From an uncultured Alphaproteobacteria bacterium (GTDB taxonomy: Bacteria; Pseudomonadota; Alphaproteobacteria; CAZZKF01), in the NCBI GenBank assembly GCA_964654995.1, contig CAZZKF010000002.1:3113-67112 (forward strand): DNA of 64,000 nt. The letters are read 5' to 3'. Position numbers and translations under genes: made by a program. The stretch's first letter is position 1; each line of letters opens with the position of its first letter. This document shows positions 8,451-64,000 of this stretch, in pieces. Below the pieces are notes generated by a model. It worked only from the letters and a program-made list of their open reading frames with translations, made no database searches and was not told the origin of the DNA.

Positions 8451-10100
8451 TCAGCGGGCGATGTTCTGGCCCGGGCCGGTCTTGTCGATCCACATCCAGC
8501 GGGTCAGATAACGGCCCATGATATTGCCCTGAAAGCCCTTGAGGTAGGGCTTGACCATGTGCCGGTCGACATAGAAATAGATCGGGATGATGGGGAGATC
8601 CTCGAGCATCACCGCTTCCGCCTTGGCCAGCAGGTCGGCCCGGCGCTCCGGATCAAGCTCGCGATTGGCGGCATCCAGCAGCGCGTCGAATTCGGGATTG
8701 GCATAGCCCGGATTGTTCATCGGCCCGGCATCCGAGCGCAAAATCTCAAGAAATGTGTAAGGATCGTTGTAATCGCCGATCCAGCCGTCGCGCGCGACCT
8801 CGAACTGCTTCAGGTTGCGGCTGTTGATCAGCGCCTTCCATTCCTCGTTACGCATCGAAGTGACCACCCCGATGCGCTTCCACATGGAGGCAATGGCAAT
8901 GGCGATGCGCTTGTGATCCTCCATGGTGTTGTAGAGGATTTCGACTTTCAGCGGTTGCTCCCGCGAATAGCCGGCCTCTGCCATCAGCTCCCTGGCTTTC
9001 TTCGTACGCTGGGCTTGCGTCCACTTGGCCCACTCGGGTGTGACCGGGCGGTGGTGGGCGGTGGCCGGCGGCACGAAGGAATAGGCCGGAATCTGTCCCT
9101 GCCGGGTGATCTTGTTGGCGATCACCTCGCGGTCGATCGCCATATTCAGCGCCTTGCGCACCCGCGGGTCCTTGAACTTGTCGTTTTCCAGATTGATGTC
9201 GTAGTAATAGGCGCCGAGATACGGCGTGATGCTGGCCTCAGCCTTCAGATTCTTCATCACCCAGCGGTAATCGGTGAGCGAGATGACATAGGTGAAATCG
9301 AGCTCGCCAGCCCGGTACTGTTTCATCTCGGCCGCCGTGTCTTCGGTCGGGTAGTAGATCACCTTGTCGATGCGGACATTCTCGGCATCGTGGAAGTAGG
9401 GGTTCTTGACCAGCGTGATATGTGACTGCGGCGCCCATTCGGTGAGCTTGTAGGCGCCGTTCGAGATCATGTTGCCGGGCTTGATCCATTTGGTGCCCAG
9501 CGCCTCGACGCTCTTGCGGTGCACCGGATACATGCTGGAGTGCGTCAGCATGCCCAGGAAATAAGGGGTCGGGCGCTCAAGCGTGATCCTGAGCGTCAGG
9601 TCGTCAACCGCCTCGACGCCCATTTTGGACAAATCCGTCTCGGCGCCCGAGGCAATCGCCTTGGCGTTCAGAATCGGATAGGCGATGAAGGCATAGGGCG
9701 CCGCGGTCGCTGGATTGACCAGCCGGCGCATGGCATAGACGAAATCCTGTGCGGTGACCGGATCACCGTTCGACCAGCGCCCGTCCTTGCGCAGATGGAA
9801 GGTGTAGACGGTGCCATCGTCGCTGATTTCCCAGCGCTCTGCCGCGCCGGGAATGAGCGTCGCGTCCATCGCTTCGGTCACCAGGCCTTCGAACAGATCG
9901 CGCTGAATGTTCGATGCCCCCACCCCTTGCGAGGTATGCACATCCAGGGTCTCCGGCTCGGCGCCGTTGCCACGGCGCAAGACGGTCTCCGCCGCCACGC
10001 CGGGCGCAAACACGCCGGCCAGCAGGACCATGCCCGCCAGCACGGCCAGGGCCCGAAGGCCGGTTCCTGCTCGTGGTATCACGCTCACTCCCCTCCCCAT
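8451..10100 (-). CDS. ABC transporter substrate-binding protein, family 5 (oligo/dipeptide-type), paralog 2
   Basis: 549 aa, about 70% identical to the 3202..4833 product over most of the length (ETVLRRGNGAEPETLDVH..., WSNGDPVTAQDF identical); signal peptide; alternative GTG start 18 nt downstream with GGGAGGGGAG SD. No transporter membrane components adjacent. Confidence 0.85.
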   Translation of the reverse strand: MGRGVSVIPRAGTGLRALAVLAGMVLLAGVFAPGVAAETVLRRGNGAEPETLDVHTSQGVGASNIQRDLFEGLVTEAMDATLIPGAAERWEISDDGTVYTFHLRKDGRWSNGDPVTAQDFVYAMRRLVNPATAAPYAFIAYPILNAKAIASGAETDLSKMGVEAVDDLTLRITLERPTPYFLGMLTHSSMYPVHRKSVEALGTKWIKPGNMISNGAYKLTEWAPQSHITLVKNPYFHDAENVRIDKVIYYPTEDTAAEMKQYRAGELDFTYVISLTDYRWVMKNLKAEASITPYLGAYYYDINLENDKFKDPRVRKALNMAIDREVIANKITRQGQIPAYSFVPPATAHHRPVTPEWAKWTQAQRTKKARELMAEAGYSREQPLKVEILYNTMEDHKRIAIAIASMWKRIGVVTSMRNEEWKALINSRNLKQFEVARDGWIGDYNDPYTFLEILRSDAGPMNNPGYANPEFDALLDAANRELDPERRADLLAKAEAVMLEDLPIIPIYFYVDRHMVKPYLKGFQGNIMGRYLTRWMWIDKTGPGQNIAR

Positions 10101-50948: not shown

Positions 50949-52754
50949 TTGAAACAACGCCACCGGGTGCAGAAGCGGGTTCAGAGTGTGCAACCAGAAA
51001 AACTAGTTGGCAACCGGCCGCCGTCAGCGGTGTCGGCTCCGCCTGCACTCGCCGCGTCCGATGCCGAAACCATCGTTGCTCATCTGCCGATCGGCCTTCT
51101 GCTGATCGACGTGTTCGCCGACGACCGGTTTCAGATCGCCCGGGCCAATGCCTCGGTACAGGCGATTCTCGATGCCGCCGGTCTGACCGACGGAACCGTC
51201 TGGTTCGATGGATGGACAGCGCCGCCGGCGCTCTTGCCCTTGATCGACAACCTGCGCCGCTGCGTCGCCGAGGCTCGCTCCGTCACCTTCCAGTGGCATC
51301 AGAGCGCCACCGCCTCAACCCCGACCTATCTCGAATGCCACATGGTTCCGGTTCAAGCCGCCAGCGGCCGCGTGGTCCGCGTCGTCGCGACCATCAGCGA
51401 TCGCACACCGCAGCATCGCATCGAGCGCCAGATGCTGCACGAAGCCCTGCACGACAGCCTCACCAGCCTGCCCAACCGCACCCTGTTCATGGATTTGATG
51501 GAGCAGTTGAGCCAGGCGGCGCGGGAGGATCCGGATCACCGCTTCGGCCTCATTTTGCTCAATGTCGATCGCCTCAATGTCGTCAATGAGAGCCTCGGCC
51601 ACCTCGCCGGCGATGAATTGCTGGTTGCGGTCGCCCGCCGGCTGTCCAAATGCGTCCGCGAAAACGATGTGCTGGCGCGCCTCGGCGGTGACGAATTCGC
51701 GCTATTGATGCATCGCATCGCCGATGAAGGCGAAGCCCGGGCCATCGCCGACCAGTTGCACGCCAGCATGCGCATCCCCTTCAACCTGGGCGGCACCGAG
51801 GTCTATGTGTCGATCAGTATCGGCATCGCCACCGGGCGCGGCGGCGACAGCGACATCGAAACGCTCGTCAGTCACGCCAATATGGCCATGACCCAGGCCA
51901 AGGCCCTGGGCAAGGGCCGCACCGAGATCTACAGCTCGAGCTTTCAGCAGCGCCCACCGGCGCTGTTGCAGTTGGAAACCGATTTCCGGCGCGGCCTCGC
52001 CCGCGGTGAATTCAAGCTGCATTACCAGCCCATCGTCCGGCTTGAGGACGGCACCATCGCCGGTTTCGAGGCCCTGGCCCGCTGGAACCATCCGGATCAC
52101 GGGGCGGTGTCTCCGGGGCGCTTCATCCCGATTGCCGAAAACACCGGCCTGATCGTCGATTTCGGCAAATGGGCGATTGACGAGGCCTGCCGTCAGTATG
52201 CCGCCTGGGCCCGGCAGGCGGCGAACGGCACGCCGCCGACGCTGAGCGTGAATATCTCCAGCCTGCAGTTCCGCGAGAAGGATCTGGTCGCCGACATCCG
52301 CGATATCCTCGCCCGCCATGACGTCGCCGGCAGCGGCCTGAAGCTGGAGATCACCGAAAGCACGATCATGGAGAACGCCGACCTCGCCGCCGCCGTCCTG
52401 CATCACCTCAAGAGCCTGGATCTGTCGGTGGCAATCGACGATTTCGGCACCGGATATTCGTCGCTCGCCTATCTCAACCGCTTCCCCATCGACGTGCTGA
52501 AGATTGACCGCTCGTTCATTGCCGGAATCGACGACAGCGAGGACAGCCGCAAGATTGTCGAAATCATTACCATGCTGGCCAAGGCGCTGGATTTATCCAT
52601 CGTCGCCGAAGGCGTCGAGACCCGTAGTCAGCTTCGGCTGTTGCGCCACCTCGGATGCGACCTCGCACAGGGTTACCTGTTTGCCCGTCCGCTGCCTGCA
52701 CCCGAGGCCACGCGGCTGCTGGCTGAATCCCGGCCTTTCCAGATCGACGCCTGA
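50949..52754 (+). CDS. PAS-GGDEF-EAL protein (diguanylate cyclase/phosphodiesterase)
   Basis: 601 aa; GGDEF motif (RLGGDEFALL), EAL motif (FEALARW), downstream EGVE/ QGYLFARP signatures. Confidence 0.85.
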   Translation: MKQRHRVQKRVQSVQPEKLVGNRPPSAVSAPPALAASDAETIVAHLPIGLLLIDVFADDRFQIARANASVQAILDAAGLTDGTVWFDGWTAPPALLPLIDNLRRCVAEARSVTFQWHQSATASTPTYLECHMVPVQAASGRVVRVVATISDRTPQHRIERQMLHEALHDSLTSLPNRTLFMDLMEQLSQAAREDPDHRFGLILLNVDRLNVVNESLGHLAGDELLVAVARRLSKCVRENDVLARLGGDEFALLMHRIADEGEARAIADQLHASMRIPFNLGGTEVYVSISIGIATGRGGDSDIETLVSHANMAMTQAKALGKGRTEIYSSSFQQRPPALLQLETDFRRGLARGEFKLHYQPIVRLEDGTIAGFEALARWNHPDHGAVSPGRFIPIAENTGLIVDFGKWAIDEACRQYAAWARQAANGTPPTLSVNISSLQFREKDLVADIRDILARHDVAGSGLKLEITESTIMENADLAAAVLHHLKSLDLSVAIDDFGTGYSSLAYLNRFPIDVLKIDRSFIAGIDDSEDSRKIVEIITMLAKALDLSIVAEGVETRSQLRLLRHLGCDLAQGYLFARPLPAPEATRLLAESRPFQIDA

Positions 52755-52842: not shown

Positions 52843-53271
52843 ATGACGGATGTGCAGACGACAACGAGTGAGACCCTGGCGAGCTCGCGAATCGCGCGCT
52901 TTGGGCTGGCTGCCTTCGGTCTGATCAATGTCTGCCTGGGCGTGATCGGGGCGGTGGTTCCGGTGATGCCGTCGACGATCTTTTTTCTGATCGCGCTGTG
53001 GGCCTTCTCCAAAAGCTCGAAACGCCTGCATGACTGGCTGTTCTATCATCGGCTGTTCGGAAGACTCTTGCGCGACTGGCACCAGCATCGGGTGATTCCG
53101 CTCAAGATCAAGATCTTCGCCGTCACCGTGATGGCCCTCGTGCTGGCCTATATCACGGTTGCGATTGCCGATGGCCCGGCCCTGCCGGTGGCCTTGGCCA
53201 TCGTCCTGAGTGGCGTGACCGGCTACATCCTGTCACGCCCCAGTGCCGTCGAGCGGTCGGACACCGCCTGA
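52843..53271 (+). CDS. DUF454/YbaN-family small inner-membrane protein
   Basis: 142 aa, four predicted TM segments, conserved W/R pattern (LWAFSKSSKRLHDWL). Confidence 0.55.
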   Translation: MTDVQTTTSETLASSRIARFGLAAFGLINVCLGVIGAVVPVMPSTIFFLIALWAFSKSSKRLHDWLFYHRLFGRLLRDWHQHRVIPLKIKIFAVTVMALVLAYITVAIADGPALPVALAIVLSGVTGYILSRPSAVERSDTA

Positions 53272-53395
53272 CCCTCCCGGTGCTTCCTTCTGGCCGTTTC
53301 CCGCTTGGCCCGACAGATATGGCTTGATTAAGGCGAGCGCGGCCTTACATAGAAGGCAGCCAATCCGGCCGCGTCAGAGCGACGGGAGAAACGCC

Positions 53396-53758
53396 ATGAG
53401 CACCCAGACAGAGACCAACGAAACAGGCACCACGCAGACGCGCGGCACGGCCGAGCGCTCCAGCCCGTGGTTGCGCCTGTTGCCACTCATTTTCTTCGGC
53501 ATCATCGCCGATGTCGTGCTGCTGCTGTATTACGTCATGACCGCGGTCCAGTTCGTGGTCGTGATCGTCACCGGCGCGCCCAACGACCAGATGCGCGCGT
53601 TCGGCGAGCGTCTGTCGGCCTATTTGCGCGAGATTCTCGACTATCTGATCTATCGCACCGATCAGATGCCGTTTCCCTTCGCCGCCTTTCCCGGAACCGA
53701 ATCCGGGACGAGCGCCAAGCCCGATACCGGCAAGGAGAAACCGGCCGCCGACGCATAA
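53396..53758 (+). CDS. small membrane protein (DUF4389-like)
   Basis: Start MSTQTETNE at ~53396 inside ORF 53243..53758; single hydrophobic hairpin LRLLPLIFFGIIADVVLLLYYVMTAVQFVVVIVTG; family assignment tentative. Confidence 0.4.
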   Translation: MSTQTETNETGTTQTRGTAERSSPWLRLLPLIFFGIIADVVLLLYYVMTAVQFVVVIVTGAPNDQMRAFGERLSAYLREILDYLIYRTDQMPFPFAAFPGTESGTSAKPDTGKEKPAADA

Positions 53759-53898: not shown

Positions 53899-56034
53899 AT
53901 GAAGGTACGGGGATGGCTGCTGGCAGCCCTTGCTTTGATCGCTGTCGGCATCGCTTCGGTGACCTGGACGACACGCGAGAAACCCCTTAATAAAAATATT
54001 AATAAATCCGTACAAGCCGTTGATACAAAACGCATAGCATCGCCTGATGCGGAGCCGGAAAACTGGCTTGCCTACGGCCGCGGCTACAATGAACAACGGC
54101 ACAGCCCGCTGGTTCAGATCAACGAGGAAACGGTCGGCCGGCTCGGGCTCGCCTGGTCCTATGCCCTTCCCACCCGGCGCGGGCTCGAGGCGACGCCGCT
54201 GATCGTCGATGGCGTGCTTTACACCACCGGATCGTGGAGCATGGTCTACGCGCTCGACGCCGCGACCGGCAAACTGCTGTGGTCCTGGGATCCCGAGGTG
54301 CCGCGCAAATGGGGCCGTTTTGCCTGCTGCGACGTGGTCAACCGCGGCCCCGCCGTGTGGAAGGGCAAGGTCTATGTCGGCACGCTGGATGGCCGCCTGG
54401 TGGCCCTCGATGCGGCCACCGGCAAGCCGGTGTGGAGCGTTCAGACGACACCAAAGAATATGCCCTACACAATTACCGGCGCGCCCCGCGTGTTCGATGG
54501 CAAGGTGGTGATCGGCAACGGCGGCGCCGAATATGGCGTGCGCGGGTTTGTCACCGCCTATGACACCGAGACCGGCAAGCAGCTCTGGCGTTTCTATACG
54601 GTGCCTGGCGATCCCTCGAAACCATTTGAATCACCGGCCATGGAGCTGGCAGCGAAAACCTGGTCCGGAACCGATTGGTGGCAGTACGGCGGCGGCGGCA
54701 CGGCCTGGGATTCGATGGTCTACGACCCGGAATTTCACATTCTCTACGTCGGGGTCGGCAACGGCAGCCCCTGGGATCGCGATCTGCGCAGCCCCGAAGG
54801 CGGTGACAATCTGTTCCTCGCCTCGATCGTCGCGCTGGATGCCGAAACCGGGCACATGATCTGGTACTACCAGACGACCCCGGGCGAGAGCTGGGATTAC
54901 ACGGCGACGCAGCCGATGATGCTGGCCGAGCTGAAGATCGACGGCAAGGCCCGCAAGGTCCTGATGCAGGCGCCCAAGAACGGATTTTTCTATGTACTCG
55001 ATCGGCTGACCGGCGAATTGCTGTCGGCCAAGCCTTATGTAACCATCACCTGGGCGAGCCACGTCGACATGGCGACCGGCCGGCCGGTCGAGGTGGCGGC
55101 GGCCCGCTACAAGGACAAGCCGGCCCTGGTGCTGCCCGGCCCGGCCGGCGGCCACAACTGGCAGCCGATGGCGTTCAATCCCAAGACCGGCCTGGTTTAC
55201 ATTCCGGCGATGGACATGCCCTATGTCTATGGCAAAGAACAGGATTTTCGCTTTCGCCCACAGGCCATCAACCTTGGCATCGACGCGATGCTGAACGTCC
55301 CGCCGGAAACCGACGCGGCGGACGACTCCGGCCCGCCGCTTGCCGGCCGGCTGCTCGCCTGGGACCCGATCGCCGGGCGGGCCGTCTGGTCGGTGGAACT
55401 GCCCGGGTTCTGGAACGGCGGCGTGCTGAGCACCGCGGGCAATCTGGTGTTTCAGGGCACCGCGAACGGCGAACTGGTCGCCTATCGCGCCACCACCGGC
55501 GAGATATTGTGGCGGGGCGAAACCGGCACCGGGGTCATCGCGCCGCCGGTGACTTATGCCGTGGACGGTGTCCAGTACATTGCCCTGATGGCCGGCTGGG
55601 GCGGCGCCGCGCCGCTCGAGGGCGGCCCCTTTGCCTGGGGCTCGGGCCGCAAGGCCGTCAACGTCAGCCGCATCCTCGCCTTCAAGCTGGATGGTGCCGC
55701 CAAACTGCCGCCGCCGCCACCGGCGCCGCCCTTGCCGGAGCCGCCGGCCCTGAACGCGCCGAAGGCGGTGATCGCCAGGGGCCGCCGGCTCTATCACGAG
55801 GTCTGCGGGGTCTGCCATGGCGGCGGCGTCATGGCGGGCGGAGTGATATCCGACCTGCGCTACATGGACGAGGCGACGCATGAAGCGTTCAACGACATCG
55901 TTCTCGGCGGGCTTTATGAAGAGAAAGGCATGGCGTCCTTCGCCGACCTGCTCAGTGAAGAGGATGCGGCCGCCATCCATGCCTATATCATCAAGCGCGC
56001 CAACGACGCCAGGGTCCTGGAGGACCGACCATAG
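53899..56034 (+). CDS. PQQ-dependent alcohol dehydrogenase, type II quinohemoprotein (C-terminal cytochrome c domain)
   Basis: 711 aa; signal peptide; vicinal-disulfide CC (GRFACCDVVNRG), propeller W-motifs, C-terminal heme site CGVCHG. Confidence 0.85.
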   Translation: MKVRGWLLAALALIAVGIASVTWTTREKPLNKNINKSVQAVDTKRIASPDAEPENWLAYGRGYNEQRHSPLVQINEETVGRLGLAWSYALPTRRGLEATPLIVDGVLYTTGSWSMVYALDAATGKLLWSWDPEVPRKWGRFACCDVVNRGPAVWKGKVYVGTLDGRLVALDAATGKPVWSVQTTPKNMPYTITGAPRVFDGKVVIGNGGAEYGVRGFVTAYDTETGKQLWRFYTVPGDPSKPFESPAMELAAKTWSGTDWWQYGGGGTAWDSMVYDPEFHILYVGVGNGSPWDRDLRSPEGGDNLFLASIVALDAETGHMIWYYQTTPGESWDYTATQPMMLAELKIDGKARKVLMQAPKNGFFYVLDRLTGELLSAKPYVTITWASHVDMATGRPVEVAAARYKDKPALVLPGPAGGHNWQPMAFNPKTGLVYIPAMDMPYVYGKEQDFRFRPQAINLGIDAMLNVPPETDAADDSGPPLAGRLLAWDPIAGRAVWSVELPGFWNGGVLSTAGNLVFQGTANGELVAYRATTGEILWRGETGTGVIAPPVTYAVDGVQYIALMAGWGGAAPLEGGPFAWGSGRKAVNVSRILAFKLDGAAKLPPPPPAPPLPEPPALNAPKAVIARGRRLYHEVCGVCHGGGVMAGGVISDLRYMDEATHEAFNDIVLGGLYEEKGMASFADLLSEEDAAAIHAYIIKRANDARVLEDRP

Positions 56035-56044
56035 GGTTTGACGA

Positions 56045-57196
56045 TCACGTCACGCCGAGTTCGCGATAAAGTGCCTCCACACGGGCGGCATTGCCGTCCC
56101 AGGTGAAATCGCGCTCGACAATCGTGGCCCCGGCCCGGTGCCCCAGATGGCGGCGCAGATCGGCATCGGCGCAGACCCGCTCAAGCGCCCGTTCCAGGGC
56201 CCCTTCGGCATCCGCATCGAACAGCACGGCATTGTCGCCATCAACCAGGATCTCGCGGATATTCGGCCGGTCCGGGGCAACGATCGCCTTTTCCATCGCC
56301 ATATACTCGAACATCTTGAGGGGCGAGGCGTAGGCAACCACATCCGGCTGCAAGGCGACATCGAAGGCGGCGACATGATCGGCCACATGCTCGCGCGCCA
56401 CCACGCCGGTCACGGTGACCGCTTCAGGAATGCCCAGCTCATGGGCCAGTGCTTCCAGGGGTGCGCGTGCCGGGCCATCGCCGACCATCAGCAGGTGCAG
56501 CTCCGGGCGCCCGGCCCGGGCGATAAAGCGCACCACCCGATCGAGCCCGTGCCAGGGCCGCATGAAGCCGGTAAAGCCCAGCACCAGCTTGCCGGACAGG
56601 CCAAGCCGCGCCTTGGCGGCCTCAACGTCGATCGTACCGGCAAAGCGGCTGCTATCGATGCCGTTGTGGATCACCCGGATGCGCGCGTCCGGCACCCCGG
56701 CGGCGCGCACATGTTCGGCCAGAACTTCGGTCACCGGCAGAGCATAATCGGCGCCGCGCCAGGCATAGCGCTCGCTCCAGCGCGCCAGGCGTTTGAGCGC
56801 CAGGCCGGAAAAGCGGGCCCGTTCATCGGCCAGCGGCGCGTTGATCTCGACCAGCATTGGCAGGCCAAAGCGTTTCTTGAGCCAGACGCCGGAGGGCAGA
56901 AACAGATTGTAGCGCTCATAGAGACAGTCGGGGGCATGGCGGCGCACGGCGCGCCGCAGGCGCCAGTAGGCGGGCACCGCATAGGCCAGCTCGGCCAATT
57001 CGTAGAGAAATCGCGGCAAAATCTTCCTGAGGCGCGCGACAAAGCCGGCCTCGGCGCCGAAAGCATCTGACTCCACCGCTTTGGGCCCGACGATCACCAC
57101 CTCGTGCCCGCGCCGGGCGAGCGCGTTCGTCAACTCTTCGATATGCACGAACTGCCCGTCCTTGGAACCGATGCGATGGTGATAGAGAATTTTCAC
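56045..57196 (-). CDS. GT4-family glycosyltransferase
   Basis: GTG start (VKILYHHRIG...) 4-nt overlap with upstream stop; EX7E-like C-terminal motif (KMFEYMAMEKAIVA). Confidence 0.7.
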   Translation of the reverse strand: MKILYHHRIGSKDGQFVHIEELTNALARRGHEVVIVGPKAVESDAFGAEAGFVARLRKILPRFLYELAELAYAVPAYWRLRRAVRRHAPDCLYERYNLFLPSGVWLKKRFGLPMLVEINAPLADERARFSGLALKRLARWSERYAWRGADYALPVTEVLAEHVRAAGVPDARIRVIHNGIDSSRFAGTIDVEAAKARLGLSGKLVLGFTGFMRPWHGLDRVVRFIARAGRPELHLLMVGDGPARAPLEALAHELGIPEAVTVTGVVAREHVADHVAAFDVALQPDVVAYASPLKMFEYMAMEKAIVAPDRPNIREILVDGDNAVLFDADAEGALERALERVCADADLRRHLGHRAGATIVERDFTWDGNAARVEALYRELGVT

Positions 57197-58386
57197 GATG
57201 CCCCCCGCTCCGCCACCACCTTCGAGAACAGATCGATCTGGCCGCGGGTGGTGGCCTCCCAGCTGAACCCTTCGGCGTAAGCCCGGGTGGCCGCGCGCTC
57301 GGGCGGCGCCGCCAGCAGCCGGCGCACGGCATCGGCCAGGGCTTCGGGCGTGCGTTCCTCCATCAACAGCCCGGCCTCGGGTGCCGCCACCACCTCCGGC
57401 GTGCCCCAGACGTTGGACGCCACCACCGGCGTGCCGCAGGCCATCGCTTCCAGGAGCACGTTGGCCCAGCCCTCGCGGCTCGAGGCCAGAACCAGAACGT
57501 CCGCCGCCCCGTAAACCTCGCACAACTGCTCATGGCCGATACGGCCGAGGAATCGGACCCGGTCCCCGACCCCCAATGTCTGTGCCAGACGGCGCAGATT
57601 GGCGTCTTCGGGGCCGTCGCCGGCGATCAGCAGGTCACAGCCAGGGAGCATCGGCAGGGCCTTGATCACCAGATCGTGGGCCTTGCGTTCGATCAGGTGA
57701 CCGACCGAAAGCAGCGTCGGGCGATCGAGGCCGAGGCGCGCGCGTGCAGCCGCACGGTCGCCGGGACGGAACATCTCCAGATCCACCCCGTTGCGCAGCA
57801 CCGTCACCCGCTCTTCCTCGACACCAAGCTCGACCAATGTGTTCTTCAAGGCCTGGCACACCGTGATCAGCCCGGCGGCTTCACGCGCTGCCCACTGGAT
57901 CAGGCGGCGCGGCACGGCATAGCGCGGGATCAGGTTGAGGTCGGTGCCGCGCGCGGTGATCACCACCGGCTTGTCGAACGCGCGGCCCAGCATCACGGCC
58001 GCCACCCCGTCGGGGTAGAAATAATGGGCATCGATAACATCGAAGTCCTCTTCTGCCGCCATCCGGGCGACGACGGGCCGCATCGCCCGATACATGAACA
58101 CCGGCGCCGTCGTCATGCCGATTTTCGGCAGGCGCAGGAAGCGCGGGTGCAGCACCGGGATGCCGTGGCGGGTGTCGGTCAGCGGCACGCCAGTCCATTG
58201 GGCGTATTCCGCGAAAGCCGCCCCGATCAAGGGACACCAGGGCACCGGCGCCACCACCCGGGTGCGCGCCGCGCCGCCGGCGACCAGATGGCGCAGGCGA
58301 TTCTCGACGAACACGCCGTGATGCGGCATGACCGGATTGGGGTAGAGCGTCGTGAATGTGAGCAGTCGCAGCATCGGTTGCATCAC
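57193..58386 (-). CDS. GT4-family glycosyltransferase
   Basis: 397 aa; GT-B fold, LLEAMACGTPVVAS motif. Confidence 0.75.
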   Translation of the reverse strand: MMQPMLRLLTFTTLYPNPVMPHHGVFVENRLRHLVAGGAARTRVVAPVPWCPLIGAAFAEYAQWTGVPLTDTRHGIPVLHPRFLRLPKIGMTTAPVFMYRAMRPVVARMAAEEDFDVIDAHYFYPDGVAAVMLGRAFDKPVVITARGTDLNLIPRYAVPRRLIQWAAREAAGLITVCQALKNTLVELGVEEERVTVLRNGVDLEMFRPGDRAAARARLGLDRPTLLSVGHLIERKAHDLVIKALPMLPGCDLLIAGDGPEDANLRRLAQTLGVGDRVRFLGRIGHEQLCEVYGAADVLVLASSREGWANVLLEAMACGTPVVASNVWGTPEVVAAPEAGLLMEERTPEALADAVRRLLAAPPERAATRAYAEGFSWEATTRGQIDLFSKVVAERGAS

Positions 58387-59549
58387 TGTTGTCGGGCCAC
58401 GCCGCCAGCTGATTCGAGGCCGAGAATTTCGCCGTAGCGGGCGAACATCTGCGCCTCGCTGAAGGACTCGCGGGCGCGAGCGCGATTGGCCTCGCCGAGG
58501 CGCCGGCGCAGGCTCTCATCGCCGGCCAGCGCCGAGAGCGCGGCAGCGAGCGCTCCTTCGTCGCCGCGCGGCACGATCAGCTTGCGGTTCTCCGGCGCCA
58601 CCATCGCTGCCACGTCACCAACATCGACGCCCGCCACCGGCAGCCCGGCGGCCATCGCCTGCAACACGGTGTTGGGCATCTGCTCGGTCAGGGAAGAGAG
58701 CGCGTAGATATCAAACAGGCCGATCACCTCTTCGGGTGCCTCCACCTGGCCGGCCCAGATCAGCCGATCGCCCAGCCCGGCCTCCCGCGCCACCGCGTCC
58801 AGCCGGTCCCGCTCCGGCCCGTCGCCGACAATCATCAGCCGCGCAGGCTCAATTCCGGAGGCGGCGAAGGCGCGAATCAGACCTTGCAGATTCTTCTCCG
58901 GCCGCAAGGGAGCGATGGTGCCGACGATCACCTCGCCTTGGCGTCGGACAAAACCGGGAACGCGCCCGGGTACCGGCGGCCGGGCGAAGCGATCGCAATC
59001 GACACCATTGGCGATGTGAATGATCCGCTCCTGCGGCACTCGCCAGCGTGTGCAGGCGATCTCGACCAAAGTGTGCGAGGGCACGATGAGCCCGGAAATC
59101 CTGGCCAAAGCCAGGCGGCGAAACAGATCGCGGCGTCGCACGGGGCGCTCCGCCTCGTCGCGCCCGAAGCCGCTTTCGAGATGAAAATGGGTGCAGACGG
59201 GCGCCAGCCGATGGGCGAGCGCCCATTCGATCGCCCCCCAGTTATAGGTCATCAGCACATCCGGACGCGCGTCGCGCAAGATGCGGCGTATCATTGCCAG
59301 CCGCAATGGCAAAGGCGCTTCGAGCGCCGGCGGGTCGCAGAGCTGCACCTGTGTCGCTGGCTCCAGGCGGCTGGCGGCATCGCGCCGTCCGTCCAGGGAG
59401 ACGATCGTGTGATGCGCCCCGCGGCCAGCGAAGTGATTGAGAACCGCGACCATGCGCAGTTCCACGCCGCCAAAGCCGAACGACGGGAAGACGTGGAGAA
59501 ACCGCCGGCCTGAGGCCGGCGCCCTGGGCCGACCGTCTGCCGCCATCAT
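58383..59549 (-). CDS. GT4-family glycosyltransferase
   Basis: Start MMAADGRPRAP... at ~59549; VLQAMAAGLPVAG motif; 4-nt overlap with downstream gene; upstream 46 codons of table ORF not called. Confidence 0.7.
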   Translation of the reverse strand: MMAADGRPRAPASGRRFLHVFPSFGFGGVELRMVAVLNHFAGRGAHHTIVSLDGRRDAASRLEPATQVQLCDPPALEAPLPLRLAMIRRILRDARPDVLMTYNWGAIEWALAHRLAPVCTHFHLESGFGRDEAERPVRRRDLFRRLALARISGLIVPSHTLVEIACTRWRVPQERIIHIANGVDCDRFARPPVPGRVPGFVRRQGEVIVGTIAPLRPEKNLQGLIRAFAASGIEPARLMIVGDGPERDRLDAVAREAGLGDRLIWAGQVEAPEEVIGLFDIYALSSLTEQMPNTVLQAMAAGLPVAGVDVGDVAAMVAPENRKLIVPRGDEGALAAALSALAGDESLRRRLGEANRARARESFSEAQMFARYGEILGLESAGGVARQQ

Positions 59550-59887
59550 GGTCGCGATCTGCGCCTCGCCCGTCACCACATCCACCTGTCTACCGTTGCC
59601 CCCGGCCGACCCGGTCACCGACCCGATGGCTCCGCAACACCGCATGGAAGCCACTGTGGCCCAACCGGGGCCGATGATGCCAGCCAAGACTTACTAAAAT
59701 CCCAAGGAGCAGCAAAATCCGCCGCGCCTTTTGCCGACAGCGGCCAGCAATTGCATCCGGAAATCGGCACCGAAGTGCAAAATCGTGCCAGATTGTTCAC
59801 GACGAGGTAAGGGTTTGGCGTTAAATAGGATATAAGCTGGGGAAATGGGGCGACGGGTGTTCCTGCTGATCGCAAGGGGGTGTGTAG

Positions 59888-61726
59888 GTGTTAAGGCATA
59901 TCTGGTTCCTGTTGGCGACCGTCTTTTCGGCGGTGATCGCCGTGGTTGCCTATCCATGGCTGCCGACGGCGATCGATGCCGTGACGCCGGGCGTTCTGAG
60001 CCAGGATTTCGTGCTGCTGTTCCGCCAGGATCCTTTCACCCTGATCGCCGGGTACGTCTCGATTGCGGCGCTTGCGCTGTTCGTCCTGGTTTTCGTGGGA
60101 TTGGCCGGTCTCGACGGAATCCGCATACAAATCGCCCGGCGCAAGCTGACACAATTACGCGATGACGCGGCCAGGACCGAGGACGTGCCGGTTCGCGAGC
60201 GCTTTCTCGCTGCCTTTTCCGACAGCCCGCAGTTCACGCGACTGGCCGAGCGCTATGCCGCCAGCATCGACGGTCACGATGCCGGTTCGTCCGAGGGCAG
60301 GCGCGCCGGTTCCCGCGAACTGTGGTCGACAATGCCGGCAACCGCCGTTTTCAACGCCTGGTCGCTGGGTGAGCGTCATCTTTATCTGTGGTTTTTTGCC
60401 GTGTTGCCGCTGGCGCTTGCCGGCCTCGGGGTTCTCAGTCTTGTCGTCAGCCTGCTGTTTGGCCCCACCATAACTGCCGGTGCGGCAACCGCCATCGGCG
60501 AGACCGGCGCAGCAATCCCGGTCAGCGCCCTTCCCGGCCTGATCTGCCTGGCCCTGACCTGGACGGCCGCGCTGATCATCGCCGTCGTCATGCGGGCGGT
60601 GCTGGCCTTGCGCCGGGATCAGGCCCGCGACCTCGCCGATATCGTCGATTCCCTGTTCCACGGCGGAGCCGAAATCCGCTATCTGGCCGATGTCGCCCAG
60701 GCCACCCGCGGCACGGCACGCGACATCACCGCCTCGATCAGCAAGCTCGGCAACAAGCTGCACCAGGATATGGTGACCTATGGCCAGCGCATGCTCGAGG
60801 CGTCTCAGGCCCATGCCGACGTGATGCTCGAGAAGTTGTCCGAGGCGATCGAGGCGGCCCTGTCCAAACCACTGGCCAAGCTCACCACCGCAACCCAGCA
60901 GCAGACCCGCAATCAGAATACGCGGGTCAAGAAACTGCTGGATTCCGTGCTTGTCGACTTCACCAAGGAGCTGGAAAAGCATTTCGGCGGTCAGGTCAAG
61001 GAGGTCGAGGCGCTGCTCAAGGCCTCGGCGAAGACCGCCGGCAACGTGGAGAAGAGCTTTCGCGATGCCGTTCAGGCCCTGGCCAAGCAATCGCAAGCCC
61101 ACGGTCAGGCACTGGCCGACCAGATCGCCTCAAGTCTGAAGCAGGTCAAGACCGACGAATCCGAACGCTACGCGGCCTTGGCTCAGGACCTGCGCGACTT
61201 CACCCAGGCCCTGCGCGACCAGGTGGAGACCCACTCGCAGCGCTTCGAGGAATTGCTGGAAAACCAGTTGAGCAAGACCGAAGAGCTGGCCAGTTCGGTG
61301 CTCAACAAGGGTGCCGCAGACATCGCCCGGACGGCCGCCAGTTTCGAGGCCCTGCAGGGCAGCCTTGAGAGCATGATCACCCTGATCACGCCGATCATGC
61401 GCCAGGTGATTGAAAATCAGGAAAGTCTGCTGTCGGCGGTAGAGGCCGAATCGAGCGCCAGCAAAGTGATCGGCCGGGCCTCATCGGAGCTGAGTGCAGC
61501 GGCCCAGGCCAGTCGCGAAACCGTCGAGCGGTTTATTGCTCTGGCCGAACGACTGCGCGAGATCGGCGCAACCATGAATGTCCGCAGCGGCACGGCCGGT
61601 GCGCGCAGTGAACGATCGTCACGACTCACCGTGCCGGCCCGCACCGAAAAGCTCACACAGGCCGTACGCGAACTGAAAAACGTCGCCCGGGAAACGTCCG
61701 AGGCCTTGCCCAAGCTCGACGAATAG
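59888..61726 (+). CDS. polytopic membrane protein (4 predicted TM helices) with ~370-aa C-terminal coiled-coil/helical-repeat domain; function unknown
   Basis: 612 aa; TM1 IWFLLATVFSAVIAVVAY, TM2 LIAGYVSIAALALFVLVFVGLAG, TM3/4 LYLWFFAVLPLALAGLGVLSLVVSLLF / LPGLICLALTWTAALIIAVVMRAV; remainder Ala/Gln/Glu/Lys-rich heptad-like repeats (QALRDQVETHSQRFEELLENQLSK...). GTG start. Confidence 0.55.
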   Translation: MLRHIWFLLATVFSAVIAVVAYPWLPTAIDAVTPGVLSQDFVLLFRQDPFTLIAGYVSIAALALFVLVFVGLAGLDGIRIQIARRKLTQLRDDAARTEDVPVRERFLAAFSDSPQFTRLAERYAASIDGHDAGSSEGRRAGSRELWSTMPATAVFNAWSLGERHLYLWFFAVLPLALAGLGVLSLVVSLLFGPTITAGAATAIGETGAAIPVSALPGLICLALTWTAALIIAVVMRAVLALRRDQARDLADIVDSLFHGGAEIRYLADVAQATRGTARDITASISKLGNKLHQDMVTYGQRMLEASQAHADVMLEKLSEAIEAALSKPLAKLTTATQQQTRNQNTRVKKLLDSVLVDFTKELEKHFGGQVKEVEALLKASAKTAGNVEKSFRDAVQALAKQSQAHGQALADQIASSLKQVKTDESERYAALAQDLRDFTQALRDQVETHSQRFEELLENQLSKTEELASSVLNKGAADIARTAASFEALQGSLESMITLITPIMRQVIENQESLLSAVEAESSASKVIGRASSELSAAAQASRETVERFIALAERLREIGATMNVRSGTAGARSERSSRLTVPARTEKLTQAVRELKNVARETSEALPKLDE

Positions 61727-61763: not shown

Positions 61764-64000
61764 CTACTTCTTCGTTTCCAACTGTTTGAGCAGCGCCCGG
61801 GCATCCTTGGCGCTTTCGAAATCCTTGCCCATGTTGAGGATGTCCTGAAGCTCACGCCGGGCATCCTGGATGCGCCCGTTCTGGTTCAGCGCGACCGCGA
61901 AATGATAGCGGATTTCAGGTGAGGTCGGGGCCATTGCCGCCGCCCGGCGCAAAAGGTCGAGCCCGCGGGTCTTGTCCCCCGAGGCCAGCACCGCCCACCC
62001 CAGCGTATCGGTGACTTCGGACGAATTGGGCGCCAGCGCATAGGCCTTTTCGGCGGTCGGCACCGCCTTGTCGCTGCCCACCCGCTGGTAAAGCCAGGCA
62101 AGGTTGTTGAGCACCACCACCCGATTGGCCGGATCATCCTGCTCGAGACGTTCGTATTGGGCGATGGCGTCGGCGAAACGCTCGGTATCCAGATAGGCGC
62201 CAGCCAGAACATGGCGAATGGCGATGTCCTTTGGATTGCTGTCCACCCAGGCCTTGAGCCCCGCCAGCGCCTGATCGACATCGCCCAACGCCCTTCGTGC
62301 CCGGTACAGCCGCACCGCCAAAGCCGAACTTGCCCCCTTCTTCTGGGCCTCGCCATAGGCGGCAAGCGCCTCCGCCGGCTGGTCCTGGCGCATATGAATG
62401 TCGCCCACCAGCATATCGATGGCCGCATCCTCGGGATATTTCGTGCGCATGTCCTGAGCCAGCGACATCGCCGTGTCCAGATTGCCCTCCTGAGTCTCGA
62501 GCGCGATCAGGGATTCCAGAGCCGGGCGAAAATCGGCATTCTCTGCCAGCGCCCGGCGAAACGCCCGGCGGGCGCCCTCGGCATCGGAGGACGCCGCCAG
62601 TGCCCGTCCCAGCAGATTATGGGCCTGCGGTGACCGCGGCAGCCGATCAGCCAGCTTGCGGAAGGTGGCCACCGCACTGTCGATATCCTTGGCCGCCAGC
62701 TGAGCCCGGCCCAGGGCCTCAAGAACGCGCGGCGCATCAGGATGCTTGAGCGCCAATTCGCTGGCCGCGGCGAGGGCCCGGTCGGCATTCTTGCTGACCA
62801 GATATAGGGCAATCAGCCGCAATCCCGGCTCGATGTTCTCAGGATCGGCGTTGATCGCTTTTTCCAGCCACTGCACCGCTTCCTCAGAATTGTTGGCACC
62901 GCGTTCCAGTTCGGCCAGGGCCATCATGGCGCCGACATTCTTGGGATCAGTCTTGAGAATCTTCCGGTATTGGCGGCGAGCGGCGTCCGGGTTCCCCTGG
63001 CGCAGGTCGATCTGGGCCAGGTTCATCATGGCCGGGTAATAATCTGACCGCAGCTTGAGAGCCCGTTCGAACGCGCGGCGGGCTTTTTCAAGGGCCCCCA
63101 TGCCGAGATAGGCGGCGCCGACGAGATTGGCCGCCAGGGGATTTTCCGGAGACCTGCGTTCCAGATCCTCGGCGGCCTTGAGCGCTTTCGGGAAATCGCG
63201 TTTGCGGAGCTCGACGAGGGCCAGAAGCACTGCCGCCTGTCCGACCTCGGGATCCAGTTCAACGGCGGTTTCGAGATTCGAGATCGCGCCTTCCGGATCA
63301 CCGCCGGCCAATTTGCTCAGCGCAAGCTGGGTGCGAATCGACGCTGCTTCGGGATTGGCCGAAGCGGCGCGCTCGAAATACTCGGTGGCCTTGGCATAAT
63401 CGCCAGATCCCATATAGGCGGCGCCGAGAAGCGCCAGCCCCTTGGCATCGGCACCTGCGCCTTCGGCCAGGGGCCGCAGGATTTTTACCGCTTCGTCAAA
63501 TTCGCTCTGGCGGATCAGCGCCGCACCCAGAAGGCGGCGCGCCGTCACATGTTGCGGAACTGCCTGGACAAACCGGCCAAGATTGGCGCGGGCCTGTTCG
63601 AAATGTCCCAAGGCATAATGAATAACGCCGCGCAGATAGACGTTCGGCAGATAGTTCTCAAGGACCTTGCCGGCCTTCTGCAAGGTTTCGTTGGCCTCCT
63701 CGAACTGGCGCTTCTTGGCCAGCCGCAGAGCCTCGAAATGAATGGCCAGCGGGTGCGACGGAGCGATCTCCCGGATTGAATCGATATCCTTTTGCGCCTC
63801 TTCGTCGCGATCGAGATCGATCAGCGACGCCGCCCGCCCCAGAAGCGCCGCCAGATTGCGCGGCTGGACCTCCAGCGCCGAGGTAAACAGGCTGACCGCC
63901 CGCTCACCGTCGCCGCGAAGCCGCGCCAGCTCGCCCTTGAGCACCAGCCCATTGGCAAACTGCGGCGAGATCTCAAGCGCCTTGTCGAGCTCGGCTTCGG
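61764..64000 (-). CDS. large TPR-repeat protein (N-terminus beyond window end)
   Basis: At least 745 aa of consecutive TPR units; frame stays open past the table's start at 63944 to the window edge; C-terminus at 61764. Confidence 0.7.
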   Translation of the reverse strand, partial: EAELDKALEISPQFANGLVLKGELARLRGDGERAVSLFTSALEVQPRNLAALLGRAASLIDLDRDEEAQKDIDSIREIAPSHPLAIHFEALRLAKKRQFEEANETLQKAGKVLENYLPNVYLRGVIHYALGHFEQARANLGRFVQAVPQHVTARRLLGAALIRQSEFDEAVKILRPLAEGAGADAKGLALLGAAYMGSGDYAKATEYFERAASANPEAASIRTQLALSKLAGGDPEGAISNLETAVELDPEVGQAAVLLALVELRKRDFPKALKAAEDLERRSPENPLAANLVGAAYLGMGALEKARRAFERALKLRSDYYPAMMNLAQIDLRQGNPDAARRQYRKILKTDPKNVGAMMALAELERGANNSEEAVQWLEKAINADPENIEPGLRLIALYLVSKNADRALAAASELALKHPDAPRVLEALGRAQLAAKDIDSAVATFRKLADRLPRSPQAHNLLGRALAASSDAEGARRAFRRALAENADFRPALESLIALETQEGNLDTAMSLAQDMRTKYPEDAAIDMLVGDIHMRQDQPAEALAAYGEAQKKGASSALAVRLYRARRALGDVDQALAGLKAWVDSNPKDIAIRHVLAGAYLDTERFADAIAQYERLEQDDPANRVVVLNNLAWLYQRVGSDKAVPTAEKAYALAPNSSEVTDTLGWAVLASGDKTRGLDLLRRAAAMAPTSPEIRYHFAVALNQNGRIQDARRELQDILNMGKDFESAKDARALLKQLETKK

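What the first reader, a model, noticed from the sequence alone, without database searches (positions are those of the whole stretch)
59888..61726. Unassigned polytopic membrane protein with very long coiled-coil tail (ZorA-like layout) beside a glycosyltransferase/TPR locus
It has four N-terminal TM helices with a ~90-aa cytoplasmic loop, then ~370 aa of Ala/Gln/Glu/Lys-rich heptad-like repeats. The overall layout recalls MotA-fold stator proteins with extended tails (e.g. Zorya ZorA), but no MotB/OmpA-like partner follows. Instead it is bounded by three coupled GT4 genes and a >745-aa TPR protein (PrsT-like). It could be a membrane-anchored scaffold/chain-length or export-coupling factor for a polysaccharide system, or a stand-alone filament-forming membrane protein.
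Basis: inference. Interest (0 to 1): 0.55.

Follow-up and report, generated by a model that had tools for sequence, protein, structure and literature searches.

The report
Partnerless ZorA-like protein in exopolysaccharide locus
This gene encodes a true relative of ZorA, the membrane "motor with a long tail" of the Zorya anti-phage system, but it has no motor partner, has lost the motor's key residues, and sits as a conserved part of a sugar-coat (exopolysaccharide) gene cluster, so a defence-type machine appears to have a housekeeping cousin.

Summary

The subfamily differs from canonical ZorA in these ways:
- An extra N-terminal TM helix.
- The invariant ion-filter Thr/Ser that contact ZorB Asp26 are replaced by Leu/Phe and Leu.
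- The Ca-site glutamates are absent.
- TM2/TM3 are no longer the most conserved region.
- The most conserved regions are instead the tail tip and a terminal LP.L motif.

No zorB, zorC, zorD or MotB-type gene occurs in the window or in 24 related loci. The gene is always the edge gene of an exosortase-A/PEP-CTERM-type polysaccharide cluster (GT4s, TIGR03097 ligase, WecB). In 11 lineages it is convergent with prsT-prsR-prsK-epsB.

Most likely it is a non-rotary, ZorA-derived membrane mast whose tail tip docks a cytoplasmic partner of that pathway. The function is inferred, not shown. I rate it a new variant of a known kind.

The parts
59888..61726 (+). Whole gene: ZorB-less ZorA-subfamily protein, 612 aa
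   Evidence: ORF. phmmer vs PDB ZorA 8QYY/8QYD E~1e-9. Family profile vs 8QYD E=1.6e-53. hhalign vs canonical ZorA prob 100%, E=7e-52. PADLOC ZorA1 E=9e-36. NCBIfam ZorA models are significant but below their cut-offs.
59891..59983 (+). TM0 (aa 2-32): extra N-terminal helix, specific to the subfamily. R3 and W6 are conserved and there is no acidic residue.
   Evidence: Canonical ZorA aligns only from query residue ~52. Column counts: R/K 21/25, W 19/25. pLDDT 91-97.
60032..60115 (+). TM1 (aa 49-76), ending in conserved D76 at the membrane/cytoplasm boundary
   Evidence: Hydropathy. Model helix 49-97. D76 is acidic in 24/25 sequences.
60116..60382 (+). Membrane-proximal cytoplasmic domain (aa 77-165) with short helices and a beta-hairpin (127-130/144-147), the Zorya-type hallmark. 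The Ca-site glutamates of EcZorA are not conserved.
   Evidence: Model secondary structure. The beta-sheet is described as Zorya-specific in PMC12505986. Columns equivalent to E86/E89 are R/D/A-mixed and Ala-dominated.
60383..60460 (+). TM2 (aa 166-191). P174, G179 and G181 are retained. The canonical ion-filter Thr (EcZorA T147) is replaced by L185.
   Evidence: Alignment. Column L185 = L12/F9/G2/V1/A1. The Thr is invariant in 24 canonical ZorA sequences.
60461..60523 (+). Short loop predicted to be periplasmic (aa 192-212), poorly conserved, no K/R
   Evidence: Pairwise identity 0.17. K+R = 0. pLDDT is low here.
60524..60610 (+). TM3 (aa 213-241). G217 and A228 are retained. The canonical Ser (EcZorA S184) is replaced by L221.
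   Evidence: Column L221 = L17/C3/V2/A2/F1. The Ser is invariant in canonical ZorA.
60611..61312 (+). TM3-tail junction (R242, Q245, D254 = EcZorA D217, 'VD.LF..G.E..YL') and tail shaft (aa 242-475) with 3.66-residue hendecad periodicity
   Evidence: Conserved columns. hhalign. Periodicity. Helices 212-256, 261-325 and 348-471.
61313..61567 (+). Tail tip (aa 476-560), the most conserved region of the family, with consensus 'TP.LNQV.E.QE.LL ... SK.I..AA..L.AAAQASRETVERFI.LAERL'. Period 3.5. Presumed partner-docking site.
   Evidence: Pairwise identity 0.37-0.40 against 0.24-0.33 for the TM helices. Invariant and near-invariant columns P502, Q511, R543, L552. Periodicity 3.48-3.50.
61568..61726 (+). 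Variable linker (aa 561-590) and conserved C-terminal helix ending in LP.L (P608 invariant), then the stop codon
   Evidence: Alignment A1: P608 is the only invariant column across 25 sequences. The LP.L ending is seen in most complete family members from the loci. Linker identity 0.14, C-end 0.39.
58383..59687 (-). GT4 glycosyltransferase, divergent neighbour (closest model stp2, the PEP-CTERM/XrtA GT, below cut-off)
   Evidence: Pfam Glycos_transf_1 and Glyco_transf_4 above cut-off. TIGR03088 192 bits against 409. Syntenic in L002, L004, L008 and L010.
57193..58386 (-). GT4 glycosyltransferase, translationally coupled to the previous one (4-nt overlap)
   Evidence: Syntenic orthologues at 50-86% identity.
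56045..57196 (-). Third GT4 glycosyltransferase. The listed ORF runs to 57523, but the true start is probably near 57196 by comparison with L002.
   Evidence: L002 gene call of 383 aa.
61764..64000 (-). prsT (XrtA/PEP-CTERM system TPR lipoprotein), convergent with a 37-nt gap, cut by the window end
   Evidence: TIGR02917 668 bits, cut-off 312. Full-length 938-953 aa in L001, followed by prsR in L001 and, in other loci, prsK and epsB as well.

Best explanation
SHOWN: The gene encodes a member of a distinct, rare, chromosomal subfamily of the ZorA branch of the MotA/ExbB/TolQ superfamily. It keeps the ZorA membrane fold, the Zorya-type cytoplasmic beta-hairpin domain, the TM3-tail junction and a long hendecad (right-handed-type) helical tail. 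It has no ZorB/MotB-type partner gene and no zorC/zorD. The Thr/Ser pair that contacts the ZorB aspartate is replaced by Leu/Phe and Leu. The Ca-site glutamates are missing. An extra N-terminal TM helix has been gained. Across at least 20 lineages it is the edge gene of an exosortase-A/PEP-CTERM-type exopolysaccharide cluster, usually convergent with prsT-prsR-prsK.

INFERRED: Like ZorA, it forms a pentamer in the inner membrane and projects a coiled-coil tail into the cytoplasm. The tail would be roughly 45-50 nm long, scaling from 70 nm for the ~500-aa EcZorA tail. It does not work as an ion-driven 5:2 rotary motor. Instead it acts as a static or conformationally signalling 'mast'. Its most conserved part, the tail tip plus the terminal LP.L motif, docks a cytoplasmic component of the polysaccharide pathway. 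Candidates are a GT4 enzyme, the conserved soluble C4 protein, or the PrsK/PrsR regulators. This would tether, space or regulate that component relative to the membrane assembly/export site.
For: Homology to ZorA:
- phmmer to solved ZorA, E~1e-9.
- Family profile to 8QYD, E=1.6e-53.
- hhalign subfamily vs canonical ZorA: prob 100%, E=7e-52, 512 columns from TM1 to the tail tip.
- Foldseek top hits are all ZorA, prob 1.0.
- Tail periodicity is 3.66, close to canonical ZorA at 3.62-3.64.

A separate clade:
- Of 151 HMMER hits, 85 carry G..GT with no subfamily mark, 50 carry subfamily marks with no G..GT, 1 carries both, and 15 carry neither.

Loss of the motor signature:
- The T147 and S184 columns become L/F and L.
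- No acidic residue lies inside any TM.
- In canonical ZorA, TM2 and TM3 are 2.3x and 1.6x more conserved than the protein average. In the subfamily they are 1.16x and 0.91x, and the tip becomes the most conserved region.

No partner gene:
- Genuine ZorB1, ZorC and ZorD from a Klebsiella Zorya I operon find nothing at E<=10 in the window or in 24 loci, while ZorA1 finds 15.
- The MotB-TM motif gives 0 hits, with a positive control.
- No same-strand downstream gene is conserved.

Context:
- prsT, prsR, prsK and TIGR03013 pass their curated cut-offs.
- The TIGR03097 exosortase-A-associated ligase passes its cut-off.
- Synteny table.
- The window is core chromosome.
- No family member is found on viral contigs or plasmids.
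Against: - No experiment exists for any member.
- Pentamer formation, tail length and partner docking are extrapolated from E. coli ZorA (PMC11946911).
- Only +/-10 kb around each gene could be inspected, so an unlinked B-subunit cannot be excluded.
- P174, G179, G181, G217 and A228 in TM2/TM3 remain conserved. This could reflect packing against some central helix.
- No sigma-54 promoter was found upstream, so co-regulation with the PrsR regulon is not shown.
- The candidate partner C4 is absent from this window's lineage.
- The exosortase gene itself was not seen within the fetched flanks.
Confidence: 0.5

Rival explanations
1. It is still the A-subunit of an ion-driven 5:2 motor. Its B-subunit is encoded elsewhere, or is a shared TolR/ExbD/MotB paralogue. 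The motor energises export or assembly of the polysaccharide or PEP-CTERM proteins across the envelope, as Ton, Tol and GldLM do for other outer-membrane processes.
For: The fold and the TM3-tail junction are fully retained. Small residues in TM2/TM3 (G179, G181, G217, A228) stay conserved. Envelope-spanning EPS export is the kind of process such motors power (general knowledge of the Ton/Tol/GldLM systems; review PMC9389320 listed). Only +/-10 kb per locus was inspected.
Against: [quoted passage not shown] Here that is never the case in 24 loci. The Thr/Ser that engage the B-subunit Asp are hydrophobic. TM2/TM3 have lost their excess conservation. The periplasmic loops are short and the least conserved region. 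Selection is concentrated on the cytoplasmic tip, not on the channel.
Confidence: 0.2
2. It is an anti-phage element: either a decayed orphan zorA, or a new Zorya-like type in which the neighbouring GT4 enzymes are the effectors that remodel the surface on attack.
For: It hits the PADLOC ZorA1 model at E=9e-36. One neighbouring GT has a sub-threshold Pfam 'GT4-conflict' match, 21.6 bits against a cut-off of 26. Zorya types differ in their effectors (PMC11946911 abstract).
Against: There is no zorB, zorC or zorD. Scores are below every curated ZorA cut-off. The synteny with a complete biosynthetic cluster (priming transferase, flippase, ligase, WecB, prsTRK) holds from 78% down to ~25% identity. 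That is not how defence islands behave. The flanks are housekeeping genes with native composition. The family is absent from viral contigs and plasmids. The ORF is intact and under selection, with a conserved tip. The GT4-conflict hit lies under much stronger generic GT4 hits.
Confidence: 0.07
3. It is a polysaccharide co-polymerase or chain-length regulator (Wzz/PCP-like), or a membrane-anchored coiled-coil filament or phasin/apolipoprotein-like coat protein.
For: It lies in an EPS locus. The helical tail gives weak profile matches to apolipoprotein A-IV (E~2e-7) and related helical bundles. P0003 has a weak precomputed Pfam Apolipoprotein hit.
Against: There is no Wzz, GNVR or MCP-signal Pfam hit. 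PCPs have two TM helices flanking a periplasmic coiled coil (general knowledge of the family). Here the coiled coil follows TM3 on the K/R-rich cytoplasmic side and is homologous to the cytoplasmic ZorA tail. The apolipoprotein hits are 45 orders of magnitude weaker than ZorA and cover only amphipathic-helix repeats.
Confidence: 0.04

Closest known systems
ZorA of type I Zorya anti-phage systems (E. coli ZorA, PDB 8QYD; Shewanella ZorA, 8VVN)
   Same: Homologous over TM1-TM3, the beta-hairpin cytoplasmic domain, the TM3-tail junction (D254 = EcZorA D217) and most of the tail. Both have a long helical tail with ~3.6-3.7-residue periodicity. In both, the distal tail is functionally important: it is conserved here, and it is essential for defence in EcZorA (PMC11946911).
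   Different: No zorB, zorC or zorD. The ion-filter T147/S184 become Leu/Phe and Leu, and the Ca-site E86/E89 are not conserved. There is an extra N-terminal TM helix. The tail is ~370 aa against ~500 aa. TM2/TM3 are not preferentially conserved. Scores are below the NCBIfam cut-offs. The gene sits in a chromosomal EPS-locus context rather than a defence island.
ExbB / TolQ (Ton and Tol-Pal motors)
   Different: ExbB and TolQ have no long tail. They always work with ExbD or TolR. The conserved TM Thr is absent here.
MotA / PomA flagellar stator A-subunit
   Same: Same four-TM count and N-in topology, with a large TM2-TM3 cytoplasmic loop.
PrsK/PrsR/PrsT regulatory module of the XrtA/PEP-CTERM system (Haft et al. 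2006, PMC1569441)
   Same: Physically linked: the gene is convergent with prsT in 11 lineages and lies in clusters carrying exosortase-A-associated markers.
   Different: It was not described as part of that system (no MotA-like or coiled-coil component is mentioned in PMC1569441). All 8 taxonomically labelled loci are Alphaproteobacteria or unclassified Pseudomonadota. It is not always next to prsT (L004, L011, L018). No PEP-CTERM-box or sigma-54 site lies upstream.

Membership tests
Zorya ZorA (anti-phage ZorAB A-subunit) | MotA/ExbB-type TM fold with a Zorya-specific membrane-proximal cytoplasmic domain that includes a beta-hairpin | tested here: met
Zorya ZorA (anti-phage ZorAB A-subunit) | Long cytoplasmic helical tail homologous to the ZorA tail | tested here: met
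   hhalign aligns query 52-569 to canonical columns 10-547. Periodicity is 3.66 against 3.62-3.64 in canonical ZorA. The tail is about 130 aa shorter.
Zorya ZorA (anti-phage ZorAB A-subunit) | Adjacent zorB (single TM with the essential Asp, plus a peptidoglycan-binding domain) | tested here: not met
   ZorB1 from L025 gives no hit at E<=10 in the 64-kb window or in 24 loci. The ZorA1 control gives 15 hits. The MotB-TM motif gives 0 hits with a positive control. The downstream gene is on the opposite strand in most loci.
Zorya ZorA (anti-phage ZorAB A-subunit) | Ion-selectivity / Asp-engaging residues (EcZorA T147 in 'GIIGTF', S184) | tested here: not met
   Both are invariant in 24 canonical sequences. 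The subfamily columns are L12/F9/G2/V1/A1 and L17/C3/V2/A2/F1. The G..GT motif is absent from 50 of the 51 hits carrying subfamily marks.
Zorya ZorA (anti-phage ZorAB A-subunit) | Ca2+ site glutamates (EcZorA E86, E89) linking the motor to the tail | tested here: not met
   The equivalent columns (query R122, A125) are mixed R/D/A and Ala-dominated. The residues are defined in PMC11946911.
Zorya ZorA (anti-phage ZorAB A-subunit) | Soluble Zorya effectors encoded alongside (zorC/zorD; other soluble subunits in other Zorya types) | tested here: not met
   ZorC and ZorD give no hits. The neighbours are GT4s and PrsT. Effectors of the other Zorya types were not searched with their own sequences.
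Zorya ZorA (anti-phage ZorAB A-subunit) | Score above curated family cut-offs | tested here: not met
   NF033916: 86.8 bits against 250. NF041794: 49.6 against 750. NF033915: 21.5 against 100.
Zorya ZorA (anti-phage ZorAB A-subunit) | Confers phage resistance | not testable with these tools
   Needs plating assays.
5:2 ion-driven rotary motors (MotAB/ExbBD/TolQR/GldLM/ZorAB) | A5B2 stoichiometry with a B-subunit TM Asp in the pentamer core | tested here: inconclusive
   No B gene lies within +/-10 kb in any locus, but an unlinked gene cannot be excluded. Oligomeric state is not testable here because only monomer models are available.
XrtA/PEP-CTERM exopolysaccharide system accessory gene | Conserved co-location with system markers (PrsT TIGR02917, PrsR TIGR02915, PrsK TIGR02916, EpsB_2 TIGR03013, PEP_O_lig_1 TIGR03097) | tested here: met
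   All five markers pass their curated cut-offs in the window or in related loci. PrsT lies within 5 kb in 11 lineages. GT4, C4 or ligase genes lie upstream in every locus that has upstream sequence.
XrtA/PEP-CTERM exopolysaccharide system accessory gene | Phylogenetic co-occurrence with the exosortase XrtA itself | not tested
XrtA/PEP-CTERM exopolysaccharide system accessory gene | Sigma-54 / PEP-CTERM-box promoter (PrsR regulon; PMC1569441) | tested here: not met
   No -24/-12 match with at least 9 of 12 positions within 350 nt upstream of the gene in any locus. Only two weak matches were found, upstream of C4.
Wzz / polysaccharide co-polymerase | Two TM helices flanking a periplasmic coiled-coil domain; Wzz/GNVR domains | tested here: not met
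   No such Pfam hit. There are four TM helices, and the coiled coil is on the K/R-rich cytoplasmic side.
Methyl-accepting chemotaxis protein | MCP signalling domain (HAMP domain) | tested here: not met
   No Pfam hit. The only PDB MCP match has E=0.44.

The most novel reading that the evidence does not exclude
The ZorA scaffold has been turned into a partnerless, non-rotary transmembrane 'mast' that is an integral signalling or spacing element of the exosortase-A/PEP-CTERM exopolysaccharide machinery. For example, it could relay the state of the envelope assembly site through its ~45-50-nm tail to the PrsK/PrsR regulators or to the glycosyltransferases. That would supply the unknown input of the Prs system (Haft 2006 states that the PrsK stimulus is obscure). 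It would also give a housekeeping counterpart, and a possible evolutionary source, for the Zorya sensor.
Probability: 0.15. Interest if true: 0.8.

Novelty: new variant of a known kind. Interest (0 to 1): 0.6.

Why it matters
ZorA is the only known MotA-type protein with a very long cytoplasmic tail. How that tail transmits a signal is a central open point for Zorya defence. A natural relative that keeps the tail but has shed ZorB, the ion-filter residues and the nuclease effectors would bear on this in three ways:
- It would show that the tail module can work outside defence, and probably without rotation.
- It offers a simpler system for asking what the tail tip binds.
- It adds an unrecognised, lineage-specific component to exosortase-A/PEP-CTERM exopolysaccharide loci, which underlie floc and biofilm formation in environmental bacteria and whose regulation is poorly understood.

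It is also a caution for defence-system annotation. Profile hits to ZorA at E=1e-24 to 1e-36 here do not indicate a Zorya system.

Tried and rejected
1. Two word-indexed homologue searches added nothing. The full alignment returned only the three close relatives and the tip alone returned only fragments. The exhaustive HMMER scan and the two contig scans were what worked.
2. The first related-loci run, with the 25-sequence alignment, failed for lack of a conserved stretch. It was redone with the 8 closest sequences.
3. Sigma-54 promoter upstream (PrsR regulon): not found. The sigma-70 and terminator scan was uninformative.
4. C4 as a ZorB surrogate: rejected. It is soluble, has no TM and is absent from the window. 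Its identity remains unresolved.
5. TM0 as a fused ZorB-like proton-carrying helix: rejected, because it has no acidic residue.
6. My OmpA peptidoglycan-binding regex did not match the ZorB1 control, so I do not use it as evidence.
7. The AFDB fold library was unavailable.
8. Defence island or mobile element: rejected.
9. Wzz, MCP and apolipoprotein/phasin readings: rejected.
10. Literature: no paper contains 'ZorA-like'. The Zorya and MotAB-evolution papers do not mention orphan or EPS-linked ZorA relatives.
Full report
OBSERVATION. A purine-rich ribosome-binding run lies 7 nt upstream (sequence). GC3 is 0.78, typical of the window's genes. Hydropathy gives four hydrophobic segments: 1-30, 48-83, 164-201 and 205-243. 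A confident AlphaFold model of residues 1-272 (mean pLDDT 85.8, pTM 0.80) places helices at 2-32, 49-97, 167-196 and 212-256, with a beta-hairpin at 127-130/144-147. The 89-aa TM1-TM2 loop carries 14 Lys+Arg, while the two short loops carry 1 and 0. So the N-terminus, the large loop and the tail are predicted to be cytoplasmic.

The remaining ~370 residues are nearly all helix. Their hydrophobic periodicity is highly significant (power 15.3 against a shuffle 99th percentile of 9.9). The period is 3.66 residues (11/3), with almost no power at 3.50. Only the distal part (476-565) has a 3.5 period. The neighbours are as described. Three GT4 genes lie on the minus strand, divergent from the target. 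A convergent TPR gene lies 37 nt downstream and passes the curated PrsT model (668 bits against a cut-off of 312). It is truncated by the window end.

A SEPARATE SUBFAMILY. Only three close relatives exist among 5.8 billion clustered proteins. An exhaustive HMMER scan of 1.84 billion representatives gives 338 hits. Among the best 151, three features split them almost perfectly:
- 85 have the canonical 'G..GT' motif and none of this protein's marks.
- 50 have the conserved tail-tip motif and/or the C-terminal LP.L ending and no G..GT.
- 1 has both, and 15 (mostly fragments) have neither.

Members of the subfamily align from residue 1, so they share an extra N-terminal helix (TM0) with conserved Arg3 and Trp6. 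Canonical ZorA lacks it and aligns only from about residue 52.

MOTOR SIGNATURE LOST. In E. coli ZorA, Thr147 (TM2) and Ser184 (TM3) contact ZorB Asp26 and form the ion filter, and the double mutant is dead. Glu86 and Glu89 bind the Ca2+ that couples motor and tail (PMC11946911). Both Thr and Ser are invariant in my 24 canonical sequences. In the subfamily the same columns are Leu/Phe (L12, F9, G2, V1, A1) and Leu (L17, C3, V2, A2, F1). The Glu columns are not acidic-conserved. No TM helix carries a conserved acidic residue within the bilayer; D76 sits at the TM1/cytoplasm boundary.

Constraint has moved as well. In canonical ZorA, TM2 and TM3 are the most conserved parts (pairwise identity 0.72 and 0.51, which is 2.3x and 1.6x the protein mean). 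In the subfamily they are at the mean (0.30 and 0.24). The most conserved regions are instead the tail tip 476-560 (0.37-0.40) and the C-terminal end (0.39). The periplasmic loops are the least conserved (0.15-0.17). The TM3-tail junction is retained, with D254 equivalent to EcZorA D217.

NO PARTNER. I fetched a genuine zorA1-zorB1-zorC-zorD operon from a Klebsiella plasmid. I searched its proteins against all six-frame ORFs of the 64-kb window and of 24 related loci. ZorA1 recovers 15 ZorA-like genes, while ZorB1, ZorC and ZorD recover nothing even at E<=10. A MotB-type TM motif that matches the ZorB1 control has no match anywhere. [quoted passage not shown] Here the downstream gene is usually on the opposite strand, and the only recurring same-strand downstream gene, seen in two loci, is GalE-like in L007.

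CONTEXT. Contigs carrying relatives at 78% and 45% identity repeat the arrangement GT4s / ZorA-like / PrsT. Scans of the genome and metagenome collections added 21 loci. By gene clustering and tblastn, the gene is convergent with or close to prsT in 11 lineages: the window/L001, L002, L003, L005, L006, L007, L008+L009, L010, L012, L016 and L019. In those loci prsT is followed by prsR, prsK and the TIGR03013 priming transferase, each above its curated cut-off in L007. Where prsT is not nearby (L004, L011/L022, L013/L018), the gene is the last gene of a polysaccharide cluster. That cluster holds the exosortase-A-associated ligase TIGR03097 (392 bits against 188), WecB, an asparagine-synthase-like gene, a Wzx-type flippase and GT4s, and housekeeping genes follow it. 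Every locus with upstream sequence has GT4, C4 or ligase genes upstream.

The labelled loci are Alphaproteobacteria (Sneathiellales, Sphingomonadales, Pedomonas) or unclassified Pseudomonadota. A low-GC ~1-Mb contig has the same layout. The window itself is core chromosome: AnmK, TyrRS, YhdP, GlnE, PBP1a, RNase E, ThiG, AccBC and class II RNR. Composition is uniform. No member was found on viral contigs or plasmids. No public source gives the protein a name. No paper in the library uses 'ZorA-like'. The founding PEP-CTERM paper lists no such component and says the stimulus of PrsK is unknown (PMC1569441).

MECHANISM. Shown: homology, topology prediction, loss of the motor residues, absence of nearby partner genes, conserved EPS-locus synteny, and selection focused on the tail tip. 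Inferred: by homology the protein probably forms a pentamer with a coiled-coil tail of roughly 45-50 nm, scaling from ~70 nm for the ~500-aa EcZorA tail. The B-contact residues are hydrophobic, the B-gripping helices are no longer specially conserved and no B gene is linked. So I think it most likely does not rotate. It would act as a membrane-anchored mast whose conserved tip and LP.L end bind a cytoplasmic partner of the polysaccharide pathway. Candidate partners, by proximity only, are a GT4, the C4 protein, or PrsK/PrsR. Natural tail-length variants from 430 to 753 aa, including a 3 x 33-residue insertion, fit a spacer or ruler-like element.

I put about 0.9 on the identity and context claims and about 0.35-0.4 on the specific mechanism, giving 0.5 overall. 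The main rival (0.2) is a motor with an unlinked B-subunit that energises export. A defence role (0.07) and a Wzz-like or filament role (0.04) are poorly supported.

NOVELTY AND SCORE. The fold and family are known, and the domain-level relationship is already captured by a Pfam model. What I could not find described anywhere is this combination: a partnerless ZorA subfamily that has lost the motor residues, is conserved at the tip, and is embedded in exosortase-A/PEP-CTERM exopolysaccharide loci. I rate it a new variant of a known kind, interest 0.6. A specialist in Zorya or 5:2 motors would find it notable and experimentally tractable, but everything about its function is still inference.

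Noticed in passing
L005:8837-9850, L006:2-1108, L007:8705-9808, L008:5237-6235, L013:7131-8183, L017:1623-2657 (also L004 ~8955-9962 by tblastn, L015:3-479): A conserved soluble protein of 330-370 aa ('C4') lies directly upstream of the ZorA-like gene on the same strand in 8 loci. Its motifs are VVVDTEEEFDW, GAHLHPW and YKAGRYG. It has no Pfam or NCBIfam hit, and its only PDB hit is a non-significant polysaccharide deacetylase (3RXZ, E=0.088). It is absent from this window. It is a possible tail-tip partner or an unrecognised sugar-modifying enzyme.
   Followed up: partly
window 61764-64000 (-): prsT is cut by the end of the window. In the near-identical contig L001 it is 938-953 aa and is followed by prsR. 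The rest of the exosortase/PEP-CTERM locus therefore lies beyond coordinate 64000.
   Followed up: partly
window 56045-57523 (-): The longest ORF of the third GT4 gene overlaps the second GT4 gene by ~330 nt. By comparison with the gene call in L002 (383 aa), the real start is probably near 57196. That would give 4-nt coupled overlaps along the three-gene operon.
   Followed up: partly
window 57193-58386 (-): This GT4 has a sub-threshold match to Pfam 'GT4-conflict' (PF20706, 21.6 bits against a cut-off of 26). The same weak hit is precomputed for its orthologue in L002. It lies under much stronger generic GT4 hits and is probably not meaningful.
   Followed up: no
window 50949-52754 (+) and 53899-56034 (+): A PAS-GGDEF-EAL (c-di-GMP turnover) protein and a quinohaemoprotein PQQ alcohol dehydrogenase lie just upstream of the polysaccharide genes. 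The PQQ dehydrogenase is also adjacent in L002. A regulatory link between c-di-GMP and the EPS locus is possible but was not examined.
   Followed up: no
L010:9059-10351, L011:8933-10417, L019:9194-10741, L013:8317-10359, L017:2776-5037; protein P0014: Tail length varies widely within the subfamily (proteins of 430, 494, 515, ~580-612 and 680-753 aa), while the TM domain and the tip stay conserved. P0014 carries an insert of about 100 aa made of three 33-residue repeats (3 x 3 hendecads).
   Followed up: partly
protein P0031: This is the only hit that has both a G..GT-like motif and the subfamily's LP.L ending. It may be an intermediate form or a chance regex match.
   Followed up: no
L005:11856-13370 (-), L005:13517-15250 (+), L019:11841-13985 (-): Large genes of 504-714 aa lie between the ZorA-like gene and prsT in some loci. 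The two L005 genes have no Pfam match at E<=0.01, and the 504-aa one also has none in NCBIfam; the L019 gene was not scanned. All are uncharacterised members of these clusters.
   Followed up: no
window 52843-53271 (+) and 53243-53758 (+): Two small membrane-protein genes (DUF454 and DUF4389) overlap by ~30 nt between the GGDEF-EAL gene and the PQQ dehydrogenase.
   Followed up: no
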